From IMG/VR virus record IMGVR_UViG_2897358383_000001, positions 1 through 5,193 of that record: 5,193 nucleotides of DNA; one strand, written 5' to 3'. This DNA comes from a virus (taxonomy: Duplodnaviria; Heunggongvirae; Uroviricota; Caudoviricetes). Positions within the stretch are counted from its first letter, which is position 1, and the number at the start of each line of letters is the position of its first letter. The position numbers and the translations under genes are program-made. This document shows positions 1 through 5,193 of this stretch, in pieces. A model generated the notes under the pieces. It was not told the DNA's origin. It was given only the letters and a program-made list of their open reading frames with translations, and searched no databases.

Positions 1-1
1 C

Positions 2-328
2 CCAACGTTAAAATTACCTGATTTACGCGGTGAGTTTATCCGTGGTTGGGATGATGGGCGAGGTGTGGATGCGGGAAGGGTCATCTTAAGCATACAGGGG
101 TGGTTAACAGGAAGTCATTATCATAATATTCGGTCATGGGACGCGTGGGATAACACGGTATTGGTGCCAAATGACAGAGGGGGGGATAGCCTGTTGTCGA
201 CAGATAACGCCGTCCAAGAAGGAGCGATTAATGGTAAATTTACCAGTCAATACAGAACGGAGTTATCTGGGGGGAATGAAACCCGCCCACGTAACATTGC
301 CTTCAATTATATTGTGAGAGCAGCATAA
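2..328 (+). CDS. Tail-fibre protein, C-terminal variable (receptor-binding) cassette A; 5' end lies upstream of the window
   Basis: Frame is open from position 2 to TAA at 326-328 (the GTG at 65 in the ORF track is internal). Translation PTLKLPDLRGEFIRGWDDGRGVDAGR...ETRPRNIAFNYIVRAA carries the Mu S / P1 S-type motif and the same C-terminal 16-mer as the - strand cassettes. Its stop overlaps the next start (TAATG). Confidence 0.8.
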   Translation, partial: PTLKLPDLRGEFIRGWDDGRGVDAGRVILSIQGWLTGSHYHNIRSWDAWDNTVLVPNDRGGDSLLSTDNAVQEGAINGKFTSQYRTELSGGNETRPRNIAFNYIVRAA

Positions 329-938
329 TGGATAATGCGATATTAAATAGCGAACTTATAGCCATACAGGCAGGAAACATTATCGTTTATAACTATGATG
401 GTGGTAATCGGGAATATATTTCTGCATCAACTGAATATCTTGCTGTTGGCGTTGGTATTCCGGCACATTCTTGTTTGGATGCTCCAGGCTCACATAAAGC
501 AGGTTATGCGATTCTCCGTTCAGAGGATTTAAGTTCATGGGAGTATGTGCCAGATCATCGTGGCGAAACTGTCTATAGCATTGACACAGGGAATCCCGAA
601 GAAATCACGGTGTTGGGTGACTATCCGGAAAATACAACCACTATCGCCCGCTAACACCATACGACAAATGGGATGGAGAGAAATGGGTGGTTGATACTGA
701 GGCTCAACATAGTGGCAGCTGTAGAGGCAGCAGAAACAAAACGTCAGTCATTGATTGATACTGCGATGGATTCCATTAGTCTGATTCAGTTGAAATTACG
801 GGCTGGACGGAAGTTGACGCAGGCAGAAACCACCAGCTTAACTCCGTGCTAGATTATATAGACGAGCTGAACGCGATGGATTTAACCACGGCACCAGATC
901 TCAACTGGCCTGAAAAACAACTTTCTACAGCCAGTTGA
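328..938 (+). pseudogene. Tail-fibre assembly chaperone (Tfa/U-like), reading frame interrupted at least three times
   Basis: ATG at 328 overlaps the cassette A stop. Frame 1 (328-654) gives MDNAILNSELIAIQAGN...ENTTTIAR*. The protein then continues in frame 3 (657-~710, PYDKWDGEKWVVDTEAQH), frame 1 (~709-852, VAAVEAAETKRQSLIDTAMDSISLIQLKLRAGRKLTQAETTSL) and frame 3 (849-938, LDYIDELNAMDLTTAPDLNWPEKQLSTAS*). The C-terminal TAPD(I/L)xWP motif is typical of phage tail-fibre assembly proteins. Breaks coincide with short homopolymers. Confidence 0.55.
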
Positions 939-948
939 TATAATTAAT

Positions 949-989
949 CCGCCCTCACAATATAATTAAATGCAATATTACGAGGGCGG
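949..989. other. Imperfect hairpin (CCGCCCTC..AATAT / ATATT..GAGGGCGG) between the convergent chaperone gene and cassette B; possible bidirectional terminator
   Basis: 8-bp GC-rich stem 949-956/982-989 with an inner 5-bp AT stem 959-963/975-979 and an 11-nt loop. It lies inside the sequence encoding the cassette B C-terminus (RPRNIAFNYIVRA) and is followed by only a short T-run (GTTTCT). Confidence 0.25.
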
Positions 990-1243
990 GTTTCTAAGCC
1001 AGCAGTACCTAAATTAGCTACGGACTGTTTATATGTTTTAAAGTTCCATAATTAGGGGCTGGCAATCCTGCATCGCTTGTGTTCCCCCATCTGATAACTC
1101 CCGTATTACCACTAGTAGCCCATGCCTCGTCAAAGTAGAAATTAATTGAGCTGTCAGTTGCTACGGTTGATTTTGACGGTAATCCGTGAGCATGATCTCC
1201 GTTGCATATCCTTGCTCGCTTAAATAGAGCGACCTGGATCAAT

Positions 1244-1447
1244 CCCGCGCCCGTCATCCCAGCCACGAATGAACTCACCACGTAAATCAGGCAATTTATT
1301 GTCGGGTTAAGCCTTTGCCAGATTTGGGTACTTTTCAGAAGAAAATGCTGCACCATTGCATTTCAGCCACCCCGTTGGAGGTGTGGCTGAGGGCCACGGA
1401 ACAGGCACACCAACAGGCAGTGCAGAGCCTTCCCCAAACCAACGTTT
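1244..1447. repeat. Direct repeat copy 1 (5' module of cassette B including crossover site)
   Basis: Aligns with 1731-1934. About 98% identical over the site-proximal ~140 bp (1310-1447 vs 1796-1934: three substitutions plus a 1-nt C-run difference), about 75% over the distal ~65 bp. Confidence 0.85.
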
Positions 1448-1454
1448 TTATGCC
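1430..1454. other. Candidate invertase crossover site (hix/gix/cix-like), copy at head of cassette B
   Basis: TTCCCCAAACC-AA-CGTTTTTATGCC. The core AAACC-AA-CGTTT resembles the AAACC-NN-GGTTT core of Hin/Gin/Cin sites; the left half is 11 nt rather than 12. Confidence 0.4.
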
Positions 1455-1924
1455 GCCCTTACGATGTAATTAAATGCGATATTTCGTGGACGGGTTTCAC
1501 TCCCGCCAGTATTACCGATACTCCCTCGTGAATGAAGTGTCGGTGATGGGATCAGACTCCCTCCTGTATTTGTGGCATCAAGTCCCCATCCTTGTGTGTA
1601 TGTTTTTTTGAAAATTGTCGCCAGCTCCCATTCATCTTTTGTGTCGTAACCATCATTGGCTACAACAATATGTCGATGCTTTTCCAGCATTCCTGTCTGA
1701 ATGCTCAATAAAGCACGTCCCGCATCCACCCCGCGCCCATCATCCCAGCCGCGAATAAATTCTCCCCGTAAATCCGGTAATTTATTGGTGGGATAAGCCT
1801 TTGCCAGATTTGGGTACTTTTCAGAAGAAAATGCTGCACCATTGCATTTCAGCCACCCCGTTGGAGGTGTGGCTGAGGGCCACGGAACAGGTACGCCAAC
1901 AGGCAATGCAGAGCCTTCCCCCAA
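1448..1924 (-). CDS. Tail-fibre variable cassette C (silent orientation, promoterless; expressed only when fused to the constant part by inversion)
   Basis: Intact 158-codon frame ...LGEGSALPVGVPVPWPSATPPTGWLKCNGAAFSSEKYPNLAKAYPTNKLPDLRGEFIRGWDDGRGVDAGRALLSIQ...ETRPRNIAFNYIVRAA*. The apparent start is a TTG immediately preceded by an in-frame TAA (1934-1936) and sits inside the crossover site, so there is no independent start. Confidence 0.75.
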   Translation of the reverse strand: MGEGSALPVGVPVPWPSATPPTGWLKCNGAAFSSEKYPNLAKAYPTNKLPDLRGEFIRGWDDGRGVDAGRALLSIQTGMLEKHRHIVVANDGYDTKDEWELATIFKKTYTQGWGLDATNTGGSLIPSPTLHSRGSIGNTGGSETRPRNIAFNYIVRAA

Positions 1925-1934
1925 ACCAACGTTT
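1731..1934. repeat. Direct repeat copy 2 (5' module of cassette C including crossover site)
   Basis: Partner of 1244-1447 in the same orientation. The diverged inverted counterpart of the distal part is at window positions 1-70 in cassette A. Confidence 0.85.
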
Positions 1935-1941
1935 TAGTCTT
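1916..1941. other. Candidate invertase crossover site (hix/gix/cix-like), outer site next to the invertase gene
   Basis: TTCCCCCAAACC-AA-CGTTTTAGTCTT, 26 bp. The left half matches the recalled gix left half TTCCTGTAAACC at 9 of 12 positions. It lies at the 5' boundary of cassette C, 55 bp upstream of the invertase ATG. Confidence 0.5.
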
Positions 1942-1995
1942 AATCCCTACCTATACCAACGATGTATTTTTAACTAAACAAAGAGGTTGTTTTTC

Positions 1996-2568
1996 ATGCA
2001 AATTGGCTACATTCGTGTGTCAACAAATGACCAAAACACAGATTTACAAAGAAATGCACTGAACTGCGCAGGATGTGAACTGATTTTTGAAGATAAAATA
2101 AGCGGAACAAAGTCAGCCAGACCAGGCTTGAAAAAGCTGCTCAGAACGTTATCAGAAGGAGATACGCTGGTTGTCTGGAAGCTGGATAGGCTTGGCAGAA
2201 GTATGAAACACCTTATCACGCTTATAGAGGAGTTGCGGGAAAAAGGTGTTAATTTCCGTAGTCTGACAGACAGTATTGACACATCAACACCCATGGGGCG
2301 TTTCTTTTTTCACGTCATGGGGGCTTTAGCAGAAATGGAACGTGAATTAATTGTTGAGAGAACACTGGCCGGACTGGCAGCTGCACGCGAACAGGGACGC
2401 ATTGGCGGACGTCGCCCGAAGTTGACAAAAGAACAACATGAGCAAATAGCGAGGTTGATCGAAAATGGCTACAGCAGGAAACAGTTGGCAATTATTTACG
2501 ATATCGGTGTATCGACGATTTATCGTTATCATCCTGTAGAGAAGCGCCAAACTCAATCTGAGCTGTAA
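1996..2568 (+). CDS. Serine DNA invertase, Gin/Cin/Pin/Hin/Min family
   Basis: 190 aa from ATG 1996 (the track start at 1987 is an upstream TTG), with AAGAGG 9 nt upstream. MQIGYIRVSTNDQNTDLQRNAL... contains the catalytic-serine motif, the conserved VVWKLDRLGRSMKHL and GRFFFHVMGALAEMERELI blocks, and a C-terminal HTH (GYSRKQLAIIYDIGVSTIYRY). Confidence 0.95.
   Translation: MQIGYIRVSTNDQNTDLQRNALNCAGCELIFEDKISGTKSARPGLKKLLRTLSEGDTLVVWKLDRLGRSMKHLITLIEELREKGVNFRSLTDSIDTSTPMGRFFFHVMGALAEMERELIVERTLAGLAAAREQGRIGGRRPKLTKEQHEQIARLIENGYSRKQLAIIYDIGVSTIYRYHPVEKRQTQSEL
2017..2080. promoter_or_regulatory. Candidate recombinational enhancer (Fis-binding sites) inside the 5' end of the invertase gene
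   Basis: Position by analogy with hin/gin/cin enhancers. Near-palindrome GTCAACAAATGAC at 2019-2031; GCGCAGGATGTGAAC at 2066-2080 fits the degenerate Fis pattern G-N2-Y-R-N2-W-N2-Y-R-N2-C; centres are about 48 bp apart. Confidence 0.3.
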
Positions 2569-2688
2569 TTCTAATGCCGCGTCGGTGTAATTTATCTTGA
2601 TAGAATAGGTACATTTATCGCGCGGCACATCAATTCGATGTATCTAGCGCCTGCTGACCGCTAATGAAAACTGTCCTCGAAATGTTGT

Positions 2689-2707
2689 CCCTAGCCCGAG
2701 ACTAGGG
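2689..2707. other. Perfect 6-bp palindromic hairpin CCCTAG-N7-CTAGGG in the invertase-downstream intergenic region
   Basis: Stem 2689-2694/2702-2707, 7-nt loop, no T-tract after it. Could be a protein-binding palindrome or a weak terminator. Confidence 0.25.
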
Positions 2708-3003
2708 TATCACCTCTGGAAAGCATACGCAGAACCTTTTTTAACCCAGGGTGCCCAGCCTTTTTGCTGCTCGCCTTATTCGCAAAAATTAGCTCACATC
2801 CTGCGCTTTCAAGTGCTTTTCACTGCATAGCTGTGTTTTGTTCATTTGTCTATATGCGTACATAGCCTATTAGCATATTTTCTGCCCACTATCGTTATTT
2901 ATTGCAAGCTACAGGTTTTAATTAACAAAACCAGTGTGTGTGGAAATCACAAAGTGCATACCGTTCTCAGATGTTGTTCAACTTACTGTTGTATAGGTAA
3001 AAA

Positions 3004-3267
3004 ATGACATTTTATGTACATATCGTGATGTTATCCCTTCTTGGTGGGGTGTATTCGTATTTGAGTGGGCTATGTGAAAACCGTTACGAGTCTTCATGCA
3101 AGAAATTGCTGGCCGAATGTATTTCCGCCGTACTTGCTGGCTTTATTGGCATGTATCTCGCGGAATATAAGGATATGAATGAAAGCCTTCAGAGCTGCAT
3201 GGTTCTTATTTTCAGCGCCAATAGCAGGCTTATTATTGAAGGTTCCAAAAGTCGGTTGAATAGGTAA
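3004..3267 (+). CDS. Small membrane protein, holin-like paralogue of the following gene
   Basis: 87 aa, AGG 6 nt upstream of ATG. Two clear hydrophobic helices (FYVHIVMLSLLGGVYSYLSGL; LLAECISAVLAGFIGMYLA) and a charged C-terminus. Aligns with the 3342-3671 product in the pattern LLxxxGGxxxxL..R..S..LLxxxxExxxAVxAGxxxxYL...ASN. Confidence 0.45.
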   Translation: MTFYVHIVMLSLLGGVYSYLSGLCENRYESSCKKLLAECISAVLAGFIGMYLAEYKDMNESLQSCMVLIFSANSRLIIEGSKSRLNR

Positions 3268-3315
3268 GTCTCTTATGCAACATAACCGGTTGAGAAGTTA
3301 CTTTGCATACCATTA

Positions 3316-3335
3316 CCTCCTGACAACGTAGGAGG
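3316..3335 (+). promoter_or_regulatory. Hairpin occluding the Shine-Dalgarno sequence of the 3342 gene
   Basis: CCTCCT (3316-3321) pairs with AGGAGG (3330-3335) across an 8-nt loop; the paired GGAGG is the only ribosome-binding site, 6 nt before GTG 3342. Confidence 0.35.
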
Positions 3336-3341
3336 GAACTT

Positions 3342-3671
3342 GTGCTTGACACACAGGAATTAGCTCCAGTTGCTATTGCGCTCCTGCTTTCAGTAATTGG
3401 TGGGATAGGCACGTTCCTGATGGATGTCCGAGACGGTCGCCAGTCTGGCAATTTGTTGGGATTGGTTACGGAGATCTTTGTTGCAGTGACAGCTGGCGCG
3501 GTGGCGTACCTATTGGGGCAACACGAGGGCTGGGAGTTATCCATTACGTACTTAATGGTAACGATAGCCAGCAATAACGGTCATGAGGTGATTTCAGGGA
3601 TGAAACGAGTGAATATCGATAGCATTCTGAATGTTCTTACAAGTTTGGTGAAAAAGGGAGGCGGGAAATGA
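3342..3671 (+). CDS. Putative phage holin (small 2-3 TM membrane protein)
   Basis: 109 aa, GTG start with strong GGAGG. TM segments LAPVAIALLLSVIGGIGTFLM and LLGLVTEIFVAVTAGAVAYLLG, a weaker third, and a Lys-rich hydrophilic C-terminus (LVKKGGGK). Stop overlaps the next start (ATGA). Confidence 0.65.
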   Translation: MLDTQELAPVAIALLLSVIGGIGTFLMDVRDGRQSGNLLGLVTEIFVAVTAGAVAYLLGQHEGWELSITYLMVTIASNNGHEVISGMKRVNIDSILNVLTSLVKKGGGK

Positions 3672-4111
3672 TTGGCTGGGGTGTATGCGTTCTTGCGTTA
3701 GCCTTAGCCGATCGCTATTTGCTAAAACGCAAGGACATCACGCATTTAGAACTTGGTGATGTGGAAATTAAACCGGGTTTCATCCGGGTGCCGTTCAAAT
3801 ACCGGTCTAAATTCCCGTTTTTGCGCGGCGCAACGGTCAGATATTGGATCCGCGATGTTCAGAAGCCGACGACAGTGATTGAAGGCGAACAACGTTGTTT
3901 GACGTCGGCTGAACAGGGCGAAAACAGTGAATGGTTGTACATACCCACTGAATATATGGGTAAAGGAGAGCGACTGTGGCATTTCAACGTCATGGTTACG
4001 CATGGCGACTCGTTCATTAACCCGTTGTATCGGATTTTCCCTGTTACTCAGCAAATCCGCAGAAGTTACGTAATAAATCTCGCACAGGATGTGTCAGATG
4101 ACGAAAAATAA
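3668..4111 (+). CDS. Hypothetical protein with N-terminal membrane anchor, translationally coupled to the holin-like gene; possible holin regulator
   Basis: 147 aa, ATG 3668 overlaps the upstream stop, AGGGAGG 6 nt upstream. N-terminus IGWGVCVLALALA is hydrophobic, the rest hydrophilic. The function is inferred only from position after a holin. Confidence 0.6.
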   Translation: MIGWGVCVLALALADRYLLKRKDITHLELGDVEIKPGFIRVPFKYRSKFPFLRGATVRYWIRDVQKPTTVIEGEQRCLTSAEQGENSEWLYIPTEYMGKGERLWHFNVMVTHGDSFINPLYRIFPVTQQIRRSYVINLAQDVSDDEK

Positions 4112-4700
4112 GTATGCAACGGTCGATTTTGACCAGGTTAATGAAAAGGGGCTGAAATCCCTTATCGCGGCGATCAATAAAACCGGTGTTACGGTAATTG
4201 AGGTTGACTCCAGCAACCGCGCAACAACGAAAGATGGCGTTAAAGTTAAAACCGCAAAGCTGGTTCTTAACGACGGACAAATTCTTGCCATACAGGTAAA
4301 CGATACTGGCGATATATCGTCTGTGAGGCTGAATGGAAAAGCTATTCCTAACGCTCAATCGCCGGATATCAAGACGCTTGGTACCGTCATGGGGCAAGCG
4401 GCCCGCAAAAACTCCGCAAAATTCCAGAAATCACTGATCGCCAAAGCGAAACGTGTTGCCAATCCGGTAGACAAGAAACCGGCAGTAAAATCCAACTTTC
4501 AGCGCCTGCAAGAGGCAAAACAGCGGAATGCTCAGGTGGTTGCCGCTTATAAATCAGCGCAGAACTCGGTGTCTTTCAATCAACAGCAGATCACTGATTT
4601 GCGGGCGAAGCTGGATAAGGAGACAGGCCGACTCAATAACGAAAAGGCCCGAAATGGCGAACTCAAACGCCGTCTTAAGCAACTGAAAGCAGGAAATTAA
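4098..4700 (+). CDS. Hypothetical Lys-rich protein with C-terminal coiled-coil-like region
   Basis: ATG 4098 preferred over 4089 (AGGA 8 nt upstream); the start lies 14 nt inside the upstream gene. 200 aa, MTKNKYATVDF...; C-terminal third is rich in K/R/Q/E/A (QRLQEAKQRNAQVVAAYK...LRAKLDKETGRLNNEKARNGELKRRLKQLKAGN). Confidence 0.65.
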   Translation: MTKNKYATVDFDQVNEKGLKSLIAAINKTGVTVIEVDSSNRATTKDGVKVKTAKLVLNDGQILAIQVNDTGDISSVRLNGKAIPNAQSPDIKTLGTVMGQAARKNSAKFQKSLIAKAKRVANPVDKKPAVKSNFQRLQEAKQRNAQVVAAYKSAQNSVSFNQQQITDLRAKLDKETGRLNNEKARNGELKRRLKQLKAGN

Positions 4701-4701
4701 C

Positions 4702-5193
4702 ATGGAACAGTTCAATATCAATAAAGGGGTGACGATCAAGCCTGGGCTTGACGTGCTTCCCCCGCCAGTGACTGATGATGAATATCGCGCATTAATGGCC
4801 GGTGAGGACCGCTATCTGATGACGGAATCCAACACCCTGGAGGAAATCGAGGCTACGTTCTTCTATGACACGCCGATCCACTGGTGTGCTACGGATTTAC
4901 TGGAGGCGATTAGTTCTACTCGTTTGCAGTTACACCGGACCATGCAGGCATTTGTCCGGGCATTGAACCAGAAGCTGAATGGTACCGGAATCTCTGCGGG
5001 GAGTGATAAAACGGGGGATGTGGCCCAGAGCGGCGCGCGCGCGATCGGCGGTGCTGAAATTGGCCGGGCACGGAACGTTAACGGGCTGCCGGTCCTGCCA
5101 GCCATTATTCCGCTCAGTGATGGTCAGACTATCAGCATTCTGTTTCATAGCCCGACAGCGGAAAACCGGATCACCAATAGCGATACGCTGGTT
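4702..5193 (+). CDS. Hypothetical protein, 3'-truncated by the window (at least 164 codons)
   Basis: ATG 4702 is 1 nt after the upstream TAA with AGGAAA 5 nt upstream. Frame is open to the window end (MEQFNINKGVTIKPGLDVLPPPVTDDEYRALMAGEDRY...). It is absent from the ORF track only because no stop falls inside the window. Confidence 0.65.
   Translation, partial: MEQFNINKGVTIKPGLDVLPPPVTDDEYRALMAGEDRYLMTESNTLEEIEATFFYDTPIHWCATDLLEAISSTRLQLHRTMQAFVRALNQKLNGTGISAGSDKTGDVAQSGARAIGGAEIGRARNVNGLPVLPAIIPLSDGQTISILFHSPTAENRITNSDTLV

What the first reader, a model, noticed from the sequence alone, without database searches (positions are those of the whole stretch)
328..1447. All frame disruptions cluster in the chaperone gene and cassette B while flanking genes are intact
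At least three frame changes in the chaperone gene (near 652, 708 and 847), plus a nonsense codon, several frame changes and a shortened crossover-site C-run in cassette B, fall within about 1.1 kb. Roughly 3.7 kb of other coding sequence in the window shows none. That argues for genuine decay of this contiguous block, or for local misassembly of a region that exists as mixed inversion isomers, rather than random sequencing error. If real, cassette A has no functional linked chaperone and the switch may be partly crippled.
Basis: seen in the sequence. Interest (0 to 1): 0.55.

Follow-up and report, generated by a model that had tools for sequence, protein, structure and literature searches.

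The report
Probable assembly errors in tail-fibre switch
Nine one-base insertions or deletions really are packed into 0.8 kb of a well-known invertible phage tail-fibre switch, but they look like uncorrected sequencing or assembly errors rather than real gene decay.

Summary
The window is the Min-type (p15B-like) multiple-inversion tail-fibre region of a P1-like phage-plasmid. It holds cassette A, a Caudo_TAP chaperone, cassettes B and C on the opposite strand, the Min invertase, then lydC/lydA/lydB/hdf/darA.

Against every relative there are exactly nine 1-nt indels between 646 and 1433: three in the chaperone and six in cassette B, one of them in the crossover site. None occurs in the other 4.4 kb (scan statistic P about 2e-6).

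The "genuine decay" reading fails on five counts:
- Against NZ_OZ501685.1 the flanks (1-640 and 1941-5193, 3.9 kb) have zero differences.
- From 641 to about 1390 the block has eight indels and no substitution.
- Undoing the nine indels restores proteins identical to the intact orthologues.
- Seven of the nine are deletions, and six lie in homopolymers of 3 bases or more.
- Alleles 1-8 occur in none of 5,426 complete E. coli genomes or 33 fetched loci.

Other public assemblies show frameshifts confined to the same invertible region, for example pHeN100_02 with 11 consecutive frameshifted CDS and intact flanks.

Verdict: a local consensus or polishing artefact in a structurally heterogeneous region (about 0.85). 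Only the reads can prove it. Low interest.

The parts
2..328 (+). 3' part of tail-fibre tip cassette A (the variable C-terminus of the S-like fibre gene). It is intact.
   Evidence: No differences from L001, L004 or L006 over 1-640. It corresponds to the 152-aa Collar-domain cassette WP_071961623.1. There is a weak Pfam S_tail_recep_bd hit.
328..938 (+). Tail-fibre assembly chaperone gene (Caudo_TAP, U/Tfa-like), broken into three ORF pieces by three 1-nt indels.
   Evidence: ORFs 328-654, 673-852 and 846-938. The indels are seen. The repaired product is identical to the 203-aa WP_000367942.1. Pfam PF02413 scores E=3e-30.
647..649 (.). Indel 1: C-run of 3 bases where all relatives have 4 (-C).
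   Evidence: The window allele is absent from 33 loci, 5,426 E. coli genomes and the viral, genome and metagenome collections. The intact allele is found in 11 viral contigs.
714..715 (.). Indel 2: GG where relatives have a single G (+G).
   Evidence: Absent elsewhere.
833..834 (.). Indel 3: a G is missing between these two bases (CCACGCAGC becomes CCACCAGC). Not a homopolymer.
   Evidence: Absent elsewhere.
944..1447 (-). Silent tail-fibre tip cassette B (Collar domain), disrupted by six 1-nt indels.
   Evidence: The repaired product is identical to the 165-aa cassette of L004, WP_072196854.1. Pfam Collar scores E=4e-15.
1040..1042 (.). Indel 4: A-run of 3 bases where relatives have 4 (-A).
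   Evidence: Absent elsewhere.
1197..1198 (.). Indel 5: GATCCTCC becomes GATCTCC (-C), next to a GATC site.
   Evidence: Absent elsewhere.
1222..1224 (.). Indel 6: A-run of 3 bases where relatives have 4 (-A).
   Evidence: Absent elsewhere.
1299..1309 (.). Indels 7 and 8: -T (TTT becomes TT at 1299-1300) and +T (T becomes TT at 1307-1308), 9 nt apart. They compensate for each other but create an in-frame TAA on the minus strand at 1307-1309. The site is variable between paralogous cassettes.
   Evidence: The resulting string matches no natural cassette allele in any locus. CP173566.1 is also garbled at the same spot.
1430..1454 (.). Crossover (mix) site B: TTCCCCAAACC-AA-CGTTTTTATGCC, core AA at 1441-1442. 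The left half-site is 11 nt instead of 12 because of indel 9 (C-run 1432-1435).
   Evidence: All of the roughly 30 sites found in relatives have a 12-nt left half. The C4 allele recurs in 14 other E. coli genomes. In the two records inspected, the cassette is annotated as frameshifted.
1448..1924 (-). Silent tail-fibre tip cassette C (158 aa, Collar domain). It is intact.
   Evidence: ORF. There are 0 indels against L008. The exact protein is on record in 206 blocks of the public collection, in many cassette orders.
1916..1941 (.). Crossover (mix) site C, 26 bp: TTCCCCCAAACC-AA-CGTTTTAGTCTT, core AA at 1928-1929. It borders the fixed DNA next to the invertase gene.
1996..2568 (+). Min-type serine DNA invertase (190 aa). 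It is intact.
   Evidence: Pfam Resolvase plus HTH_7. It matches Mu Gin structures 3UJ3 and 4M6F at E about 1e-91. The DNA is identical to the L004 gene for WP_001165547.1. The invertase of pJIE250-3, which differs at 2 nt, was reported as 98.5% identical to p15B Min (PMC6906374).

Best explanation
The locus is the Min-type multiple-inversion host-range switch of a P1-like (p15B-like) phage-plasmid. A serine invertase recombines 26-bp crossover sites that lie at the 5' ends of several roughly 150-165-aa Collar-domain fibre-tip cassettes. Different tips thereby become fused to the constant part of the tail-fibre gene. One Caudo_TAP chaperone gene sits in the central segment.

The nine frame-disrupting 1-nt indels at 646-1433 are most likely not in the real DNA. 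They are residual sequencing-type indel errors that consensus calling or polishing failed to correct in this one stretch. The likely reason is that the stretch lies in a segment that exists in the culture as a mixture of inversion isomers and carries paralogous repeats, so reads map poorly or ambiguously there.

Shown: the indel pattern, its privacy to this sequence, its error-like signature, and the same syndrome in other public assemblies.

Inferred: that the cause is read mapping or polishing failure, and why the block starts in mid-chaperone.
For: 1. Against NZ_OZ501685.1 (L004), window 1-640 and 1941-5193 (3,893 bp) show 0 substitutions and 0 indels. Window 641-1440 shows 9 indels.
2. From 641 to about 1390 there are 8 indels and 0 substitutions. 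With indels at about 10-20% of spontaneous mutations (my knowledge of E. coli mutation-accumulation data), this has P about 1e-8 to 3e-6.
3. Undoing the nine indels gives a chaperone identical to WP_000367942.1 and a cassette B identical to the L004 protein, with no residual stop codon.
4. Seven of the nine are deletions. Six lie in runs of 3 nt or more, which make up 19.5% of bases (P=0.003). Four lie in runs of 4 nt or more, which make up 6.8% of bases (P=0.002).
5. The density is 1.1% per base. This is far above any polymerase frameshift rate known to me, and in my experience of the order of the indel errors left in a poorly supported long-read consensus.
6. Alleles 1-8 are absent from 33 related loci and from all 5,426 complete E. 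coli genomes. Allele 1 is absent from the viral, genome and metagenome collections. The frameshift-specific products are not on record. The chaperone is intact in 24 of 25 loci.
7. In a control region of the same size (3300-4160), 26 records are 100% identical to the window. For 600-1460 the best record is 98.5%.
8. The same syndrome appears in independent assemblies. pHeN100_02 has 11 consecutive 'frameshifted' CDS across the invertible region with intact genes on both sides. CP173566.1 has private indels only inside the region, including a garbled allele at the same paralogous site. CP088429.1 has its own private indels there. The invertible segment is also deposited as orphan 2-3-kb 'plasmids'.
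9. Identical cassettes occur in many different orders in near-identical plasmids, so isomer mixtures are expected.
10. [quoted passage not shown]
Against: No reads are available and the source record could not be found, so this remains an inference.

The error block does not match the whole central invertible segment. Cassette A and the first 320 bp of the chaperone are clean; zero events in 646 bp at the in-block rate has P about 6e-4 (my calculation). I have no shown reason for the left boundary near 640.

Six of the nine indels lie in sequence that is single-copy within the plasmid region examined, so cross-mapping between paralogous cassettes cannot explain them by itself.

Two of the lesions (+G at 714, -G at 833/834) are not in homopolymers.

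Silent cassettes are under relaxed selection, so some real damage there would not be absurd. The C4 crossover-site allele recurs in 14 other genomes.
Confidence: 0.85

Rival explanations
1. Genuine gradual pseudogenisation. The chaperone and silent cassette B have decayed under relaxed selection in this plasmid lineage, leaving cassette A without a chaperone and the switch partly crippled.
For: The disruptions are contiguous and hit a silent cassette. Frameshift-annotated cassettes occur in other records.
Against: There are no substitutions alongside eight indels, and the flanks are 100% identical to relatives over 3.9 kb, so there has been essentially no divergence time. The repaired proteins are identical to the orthologues. 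None of alleles 1-8 is shared by any relative. The chaperone is intact in 24 of 25 related loci.
Confidence: 0.03
2. A real one-off burst of clustered frameshift mutations. One example would be error-prone repair synthesis starting from a double-strand break made by the invertase at crossover site B and running about 0.8 kb into the central segment.
For: The cluster abuts crossover site B, with its last indel 8-10 bp from the core, and it extends in one direction only. The lesions are mostly -1 events in short runs.
Against: Nine indels in 787 bp is 1.1% per base. That is orders of magnitude above the frameshift rates known to me for error-prone polymerases. There are no accompanying base substitutions. 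Similar frameshift clusters in other assemblies are spread over the whole invertible region rather than next to one site. No such process is documented for Hin/Gin/Cin/Min systems as far as I know.
Confidence: 0.03
3. A mixture. Most indels are artefacts, but one or a few are real variants. Candidates are the C5-to-C4 change in the crossover site, or the -T/+T pair at the paralogous site (for example from an imprecise gene-conversion tract between cassettes).
For: The C4 allele recurs in 14 other E. coli genomes. Positions 1299-1308 lie at a site where cassettes differ naturally, within a mosaic and evidently recombining N-terminal repeat.
Against: In the two records inspected, the cassette carrying the C4 allele is annotated as frameshifted, and one of them is riddled with frameshifts. 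The 1299-1308 string matches no natural cassette allele. A homopolymer undercall would explain the recurrence equally well.
Confidence: 0.08

Closest known systems
Min multiple DNA-inversion system of plasmid p15B (Sandmeier, Iida, Arber 1990 and 1992; Iida 1990). These are cited in the reference lists of PMC5903667, PMC11850598 and PMC6906374. The details are from my own knowledge.
   Same: It sits in a P1-like backbone (lydC/lydA/lydB/hdf/darA). The invertase differs at only 2 nt from one reported as 98.5% identical to p15B Min. Several Collar-domain fibre-tip cassettes each begin with a conserved crossover site. Relatives carry 5-7 such sites in both orientations, and the cassette order is shuffled between near-identical plasmids.
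   Different: Nothing structural differs. The only peculiarity is the nine private 1-nt indels, which are probably not real. The window shows only two of the crossover sites, both in the same orientation. Their inverted partners lie upstream of the window.
Cin/C-segment of phage P1 and Gin/G-segment of phage Mu (simple two-site tail-fibre inversion switches)
   Same: A serine invertase of the same family (E about 1e-91 to Mu Gin) switches the C-terminal part of the tail-fibre gene to change host range.
   Different: P1 and Mu have two crossover sites and two S-variable/U pairs, so each fibre variant brings its own chaperone. Here there are many short cassettes and a single chaperone gene. DNA homology to P1 begins only at window position 2700.
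Local failure of error correction in multi-inversion (shufflon) regions of long-read or hybrid assemblies, for example plasmid 2 of Pseudomonas koreensis P19E3 (PMC6158609)
   Same: The problem region is confined to a multiple-inversion locus and the surrounding sequence is clean. In that paper both ONT and Illumina reads mapped poorly to the region, and it needed tailored polishing.
   Different: That case was demonstrated with reads. Here the reads are not available and the cause is inferred from the error signature and from comparison with relatives.
R64-type shufflon (Rci tyrosine recombinase, pilV tips)
   Same: It uses the same multi-site inversion logic to shuffle alternative C-terminal tips of an adhesin-like protein.
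   Different: It has a different recombinase class (tyrosine rather than serine), different sites, and a pilus rather than a phage tail fibre.

Membership tests
Din-family serine DNA invertases (Hin/Gin/Cin/Pin/Min) | A protein of about 190 aa with an N-terminal resolvase catalytic domain, a serine near position 9-10, and a C-terminal HTH_7 domain. | tested here: met
   Pfam Resolvase E=2e-51 and HTH_7 E=3e-15. The N-terminus reads MQIGYIRVS, with Ser9, in the sequence. It matches Mu Gin structures at E about 1e-91 over residues 1-185.
Din-family serine DNA invertases (Hin/Gin/Cin/Pin/Min) | 26-bp crossover sites made of two 12-bp half-sites around a 2-bp core, present in inverted orientation. 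| tested here: inconclusive
   Site C (1916-1941) fits. Site B (1430-1454) has an 11-nt left half because of indel 9. Both sites in the window have the same orientation. The inverted partners are seen only in relatives, because the window starts inside cassette A.
Din-family serine DNA invertases (Hin/Gin/Cin/Pin/Min) | A Fis-dependent recombinational enhancer in cis. | not tested
   I did not scan for Fis sites or an enhancer.
Min-type multiple inversion system (p15B) | More than two crossover sites bounding overlapping invertible segments that carry alternative 3' ends of the fibre gene. | tested here: met
   Relatives that are identical in the flanks carry 5-7 sites and 5-7 Collar cassettes. 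The same cassettes occur in different orders and orientations in different records. The window itself holds three cassettes and two sites.
Min-type multiple inversion system (p15B) | The invertase is Min rather than P1 Cin. | tested here: met
   There is no megablast homology to P1 before position 2700. The invertase is 2 nt different from that of pJIE250-3, which PMC6906374 reports as 98.5% identical to p15B Min. I made no direct comparison with X62121.
Caudo_TAP tail-fibre assembly chaperone (U/Tfa) | One open frame of about 200 aa with the PF02413 domain, immediately downstream of a fibre tip. | tested here: not met
   As written, the gene is split into ORFs 328-654, 673-852 and 846-938. 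After repair of three 1-nt indels it is identical to WP_000367942.1 and matches PF02413 at E=3e-30.
Genuine (evolved) pseudogene | Indels are accompanied by substitutions, the flanks show comparable divergence, and the lesions are shared by related isolates. | tested here: not met
   There are 8 indels and 0 substitutions from 641 to about 1390. The flanks show 0 differences over 3.9 kb. Alleles 1-8 are absent from all relatives and from 5,426 genomes.
Sequencing or assembly artefact (uncorrected consensus indels) | Lesions are 1-nt indels only, deletion-biased, homopolymer-enriched, private to one record, and located in a repeat or structurally heterogeneous region. Other assemblies show the same syndrome at other positions. 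| tested here: met
   Searches show the signature and its privacy to this sequence. Searches show the recurrence in other assemblies. Searches show the orphan contigs made of the invertible segment.
Sequencing or assembly artefact (uncorrected consensus indels) | Raw reads contradict the consensus at the affected positions. | not testable with these tools
   No reads are available. The source record was not found in any searchable collection.

The most novel reading that the evidence does not exclude
The nine indels are real and arose in one event. The invertase made a double-strand break at crossover site B, and the break was repaired by grossly error-prone synthesis running about 0.8 kb into the central segment. 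This killed the only chaperone gene, one cassette and one crossover site. It would be a collateral-damage mode of serine-invertase switches that, as far as I know, has not been described.
Probability: 0.03. Interest if true: 0.6.

Novelty: not a real feature. Interest (0 to 1): 0.1.

Why it matters
The main value is as a quality-control lesson. Invertible tail-fibre regions of P1-like phage-plasmids are a recurrent trouble spot in public "complete" assemblies. They show up as frameshifted cassettes and as orphan mini-contigs deposited as plasmids. Pseudogene calls, host-range predictions or "crippled switch" interpretations taken from such records would be wrong. If the lesions were real, this prophage would have lost its only tail-fibre chaperone and one of its host-range variants. 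That would be a minor, lineage-specific event in a well-known system.

Tried and rejected
1. Finding the source record, or any second carrier of the frameshift alleles. There was no 100% match for 600-1460 in the plasmid or E. coli collections. The 30-mer spanning indel 1 is absent from the viral, genome and metagenome collections. The three frameshift-specific ORF products are not on record.

3. Cross-mapping between paralogous cassettes as the sole cause. Rejected for six of the nine sites, which lie in sequence that is single-copy within the region examined. It remains plausible for 1299-1308 and 1432.

4. Simple geometric models in which reads from the flipped isomer contaminate the pile-up. 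These predict symmetric damage in cassette A, or damage limited to about 200-300 bp next to the site. They do not explain a one-sided 0.8-kb block, so I left the left boundary unexplained.

5. A base-level comparison of pHeN100_02 with L004 across the region. It was uninformative because the cassette order differs, so I relied on that record's annotation instead.

6. An Rfam scan of the window found no RNA family. A PDB sequence search with the repaired chaperone found no hit. The phage vB_EcoM-673R5 was not used as a reference because its own record is full of split genes.
Full report
**What the window is.** The window lies in a P1-like phage-plasmid. The downstream part (from about 2700) matches P1, P7 and SJ46 at 94-98% and covers lydC, lydA, lydB, hdf and darA. 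Whole-window matches at 98-99% are to E. coli IncY-type phage-plasmids.

Annotation of relatives and Pfam give this layout:

| Feature | Window coordinates | Strand |
|---|---|---|
| 3' part of Collar-type fibre-tip cassette A | 2-328 | + |
| Caudo_TAP tail-fibre assembly chaperone | 328-938 | + |
| Cassette B | 944-1447 | - |
| Cassette C | 1448-1924 | - |
| 190-aa serine invertase | 1996-2568 | + |

- The invertase has Resolvase and HTH_7 domains and matches Mu Gin structures at E about 1e-91.
- It differs at 2 nt from the pJIE250-3 invertase, which was reported as 98.5% identical to Min of p15B (PMC6906374).
- Each cassette starts with a conserved crossover site of the form TTC(C/T)CC(C/T)AAACC-AA-CGTTTT.... 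The window has two, at 1430-1454 and 1916-1941.
- Relatives carry 5-7 such sites in both orientations.
- The exact cassette C protein occurs in many public contigs with the same cassettes in different orders and orientations.

This is therefore the known Min-type multiple-inversion host-range switch. The description of that system as a cluster of overlapping invertible segments carrying alternative tail-fibre gene ends comes from my knowledge of Sandmeier, Iida and Arber (1990, 1992).

**Check of the observation.** Alignment to every relative examined gives the same nine 1-nt indels and nothing else between 641 and about 1390:

| # | Change | Position | Gene |
|---|---|---|---|
| 1 | -C (C4 to C3) | 647-649 | chaperone |
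| 2 | +G | 714/715 | chaperone |
| 3 | -G | 833/834 | chaperone |
| 4 | -A (A4 to A3) | 1040-1042 | cassette B |
| 5 | -C (CC to C) | 1197/1198 | cassette B |
| 6 | -A (A4 to A3) | 1222-1224 | cassette B |
| 7 | -T (T3 to T2) | 1299-1300 | cassette B |
| 8 | +T | 1307/1308 | cassette B |
| 9 | -C or -T | C-run 1432-1435 | cassette B, left half of crossover site B |

It is created by the compensating pair 7 and 8.
- Outside this block there is no indel. There are 0 indels and 0 substitutions against NZ_OZ501685.1 (L004) in 1-640 and 1941-5193, and 0 indels against pJIE250-3 (L008) in 1441-1940.
- Nine events confined to 787 of 5193 bp has P = 2.2e-6 under uniform placement.

**Real decay or artefact?** Six lines of evidence argue against real decay.

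- *No divergence time.* 3,893 bp of flank are identical to L004, yet 800 bp carry nine indels.
- *Indels only.* From 641 to about 1390 there are eight indels and no substitution. The five substitutions against L004 all lie at 1395-1437 (repaired coordinates). That stretch is the mosaic N-terminal repeat that cassettes evidently exchange, and the changes do not alter the protein. If indels are 10-20% of spontaneous mutations (my knowledge), 8:0 has P about 1e-8 to 3e-6.
- *Repair restores the orthologues.* Repairing the nine indels gives a chaperone identical to WP_000367942.1 and a cassette B identical to that of L004.
- *Error-like signature.* Seven of nine are deletions. Six lie in runs of 3 nt or more (P=0.003) and four in runs of 4 nt or more (P=0.002). 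The 71 runs of 4 nt or more elsewhere in the window are untouched. A density of 1.1% per base is in the range I would expect from a poorly supported long-read consensus, not from any polymerase I know.
- *Privacy to this sequence.*
  - Alleles 1-8 occur in none of 33 related loci.
  - They have no exact 28-mer match in 5,426 complete E. coli genomes.
  - Allele 1 is absent from the viral, genome and metagenome collections, while the intact allele is in 11 viral contigs.
  - The frameshift-specific ORF products are not on record.
  - The chaperone is intact in 24 of 25 loci. The exception is a phage record full of split genes.
- *Control region.* In 3300-4160, a region of equal length, 26 records are 100% identical to the window. 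These include the same plasmids that reach only 98.3-98.5% in 600-1460.

**The same syndrome elsewhere.** Independent public assemblies show frame disruptions confined to this invertible region.

- pHeN100_02 (NZ_CP044439.1) has 11 consecutive CDS annotated "frameshifted" from 26,052 to 31,006. Eleven upstream and nine downstream genes, including the invertase, are intact.
- CP173566.1 differs from L004 only inside the invertible region. It has a garbled allele at the same paralogous site as window 1299-1308.
- CP088429.1 has its own private indels in cassettes B and C.
- The C4 crossover-site allele (indel 9) recurs in 14 genomes. In the two records inspected, the cassette is annotated as frameshifted.
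- The invertible segment is deposited on its own as 2.0-2.95-kb "plasmids" or contigs alongside the full plasmid. This is what an assembler produces from a population of mixed isomers.
- A published case describes a shufflon that stood out during error correction because both ONT and Illumina reads mapped poorly to it, and that needed tailored polishing (PMC6158609).

**Best explanation and its limits.** I conclude, at about 0.85, that the nine indels are residual consensus errors in a structurally heterogeneous, repeat-bearing region, and that the real plasmid has an intact chaperone and cassette B.

What I cannot show is why the block covers only about 646-1433.
- Its right end coincides with crossover site B, which is natural for an isomer-related problem.
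- Cassette A and the first 320 bp of the chaperone are clean, although they belong to the same central segment that flips at every inversion. Zero events in 646 bp at the in-block rate has P about 6e-4 (my calculation).
- Simple models of contamination by reads from flipped isomers do not predict this asymmetry.
- A patch or bridge built from low-depth long reads, or a paralogous copy elsewhere in the source genome that blocked short-read polishing, are possible but untested.

**Rivals.**
- Gradual pseudogenisation (0.03) is contradicted by the indel-only pattern, the identical flanks and the privacy of the alleles.
- A real one-off burst, for example error-prone repair from an invertase-made break at site B (0.03), would fit the one-sided position next to the site. 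It requires an implausible error rate of 1% per base with no substitutions.
- A mixture in which indel 9 or the 7/8 pair is real (0.08) cannot be excluded.

**Comparison with the known, and verdict.** The locus is an ordinary member of the p15B Min-type system in a P1-like backbone. It differs from the P1 Cin and Mu Gin switches in having many short cassettes and one chaperone, and from R64 shufflons in the class of recombinase. The finding itself, clustered frame disruptions, is real in the text of the sequence but most probably not in the molecule. Interest is low. Its value is as a caution about pseudogene calls in invertible regions of public assemblies. Reads, or PCR plus Sanger sequencing across 600-1500, would settle the matter.

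Noticed in passing
NZ_CP044439.1 26,052-31,006 (L023 12053-17007): Eleven consecutive CDS across the Min invertible region of pHeN100_02 are annotated 'frameshifted', while the genes on both sides are intact. This is the same syndrome as in the window, on a larger scale.
   Followed up: partly
NZ_CP142924.1 (L006, 2,021 bp, linear); NZ_JBQJRT010000008.1 (2,950 bp); NZ_JBQJRM010000005.1 (2,595 bp); NZ_JBQJRS010000019.1 (2,526 bp): RefSeq 'plasmids' or contigs that consist only of the invertible segment (cassette A, chaperone, cassette B and the next cassette), alongside the full phage-plasmid in the same genome in at least some cases. They are probably alternative-isomer assembly leftovers.
   Followed up: partly
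window 1291-1312; L005 5686-5725: The -T/+T pair lies at a spot where the cassettes naturally differ (five natural alleles). The window string and the CP173566.1 string are both unnatural hybrids of those alleles.
   Followed up: yes
window 328-938 in relation to sites at 1430-1454 and 1916-1941; L024-L033: There is only one Caudo_TAP chaperone gene for 5-7 cassettes. It sits in the central segment that flips at every inversion, so by my reasoning it is antisense to the fibre operon in the isomers that express cassettes such as B or C. How those tips are chaperoned, or whether Collar-type tips need a chaperone at all, is unclear to me.
   Followed up: no
window 1432-1435; 14 E. coli genomes: The shortened crossover-site allele TTCCCCAAACC (11-nt left half-site) recurs in 14 complete genomes, six places on chromosomes. 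Either it is a common homopolymer undercall or a real recurrent variant of the mix/pix-type site. In the two records inspected, the cassette is frameshifted.
   Followed up: partly
window 1230-1450 vs 1716-1936: The N-terminal repeats of cassettes B and C are 89% identical over 221 nt. They form a mosaic relative to their orthologues in other plasmids, which suggests frequent gene conversion between cassettes.
   Followed up: partly
window 2569-3003: The 435-bp gap between the invertase gene and lydC has no ORF that is annotated in relatives and no Rfam hit. P1 homology starts at 2700, so the Min/P1 substitution boundary lies inside this gap.
   Followed up: no
L024-L033: The identical 158-aa cassette C protein is found next to the invertase, second or third from it, or next to the constant fibre part in different near-identical plasmids, and once on a 5.15-Mb chromosome record (CP091159.1). 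This is a snapshot of inversion isomers frozen in different assemblies.
   Followed up: partly
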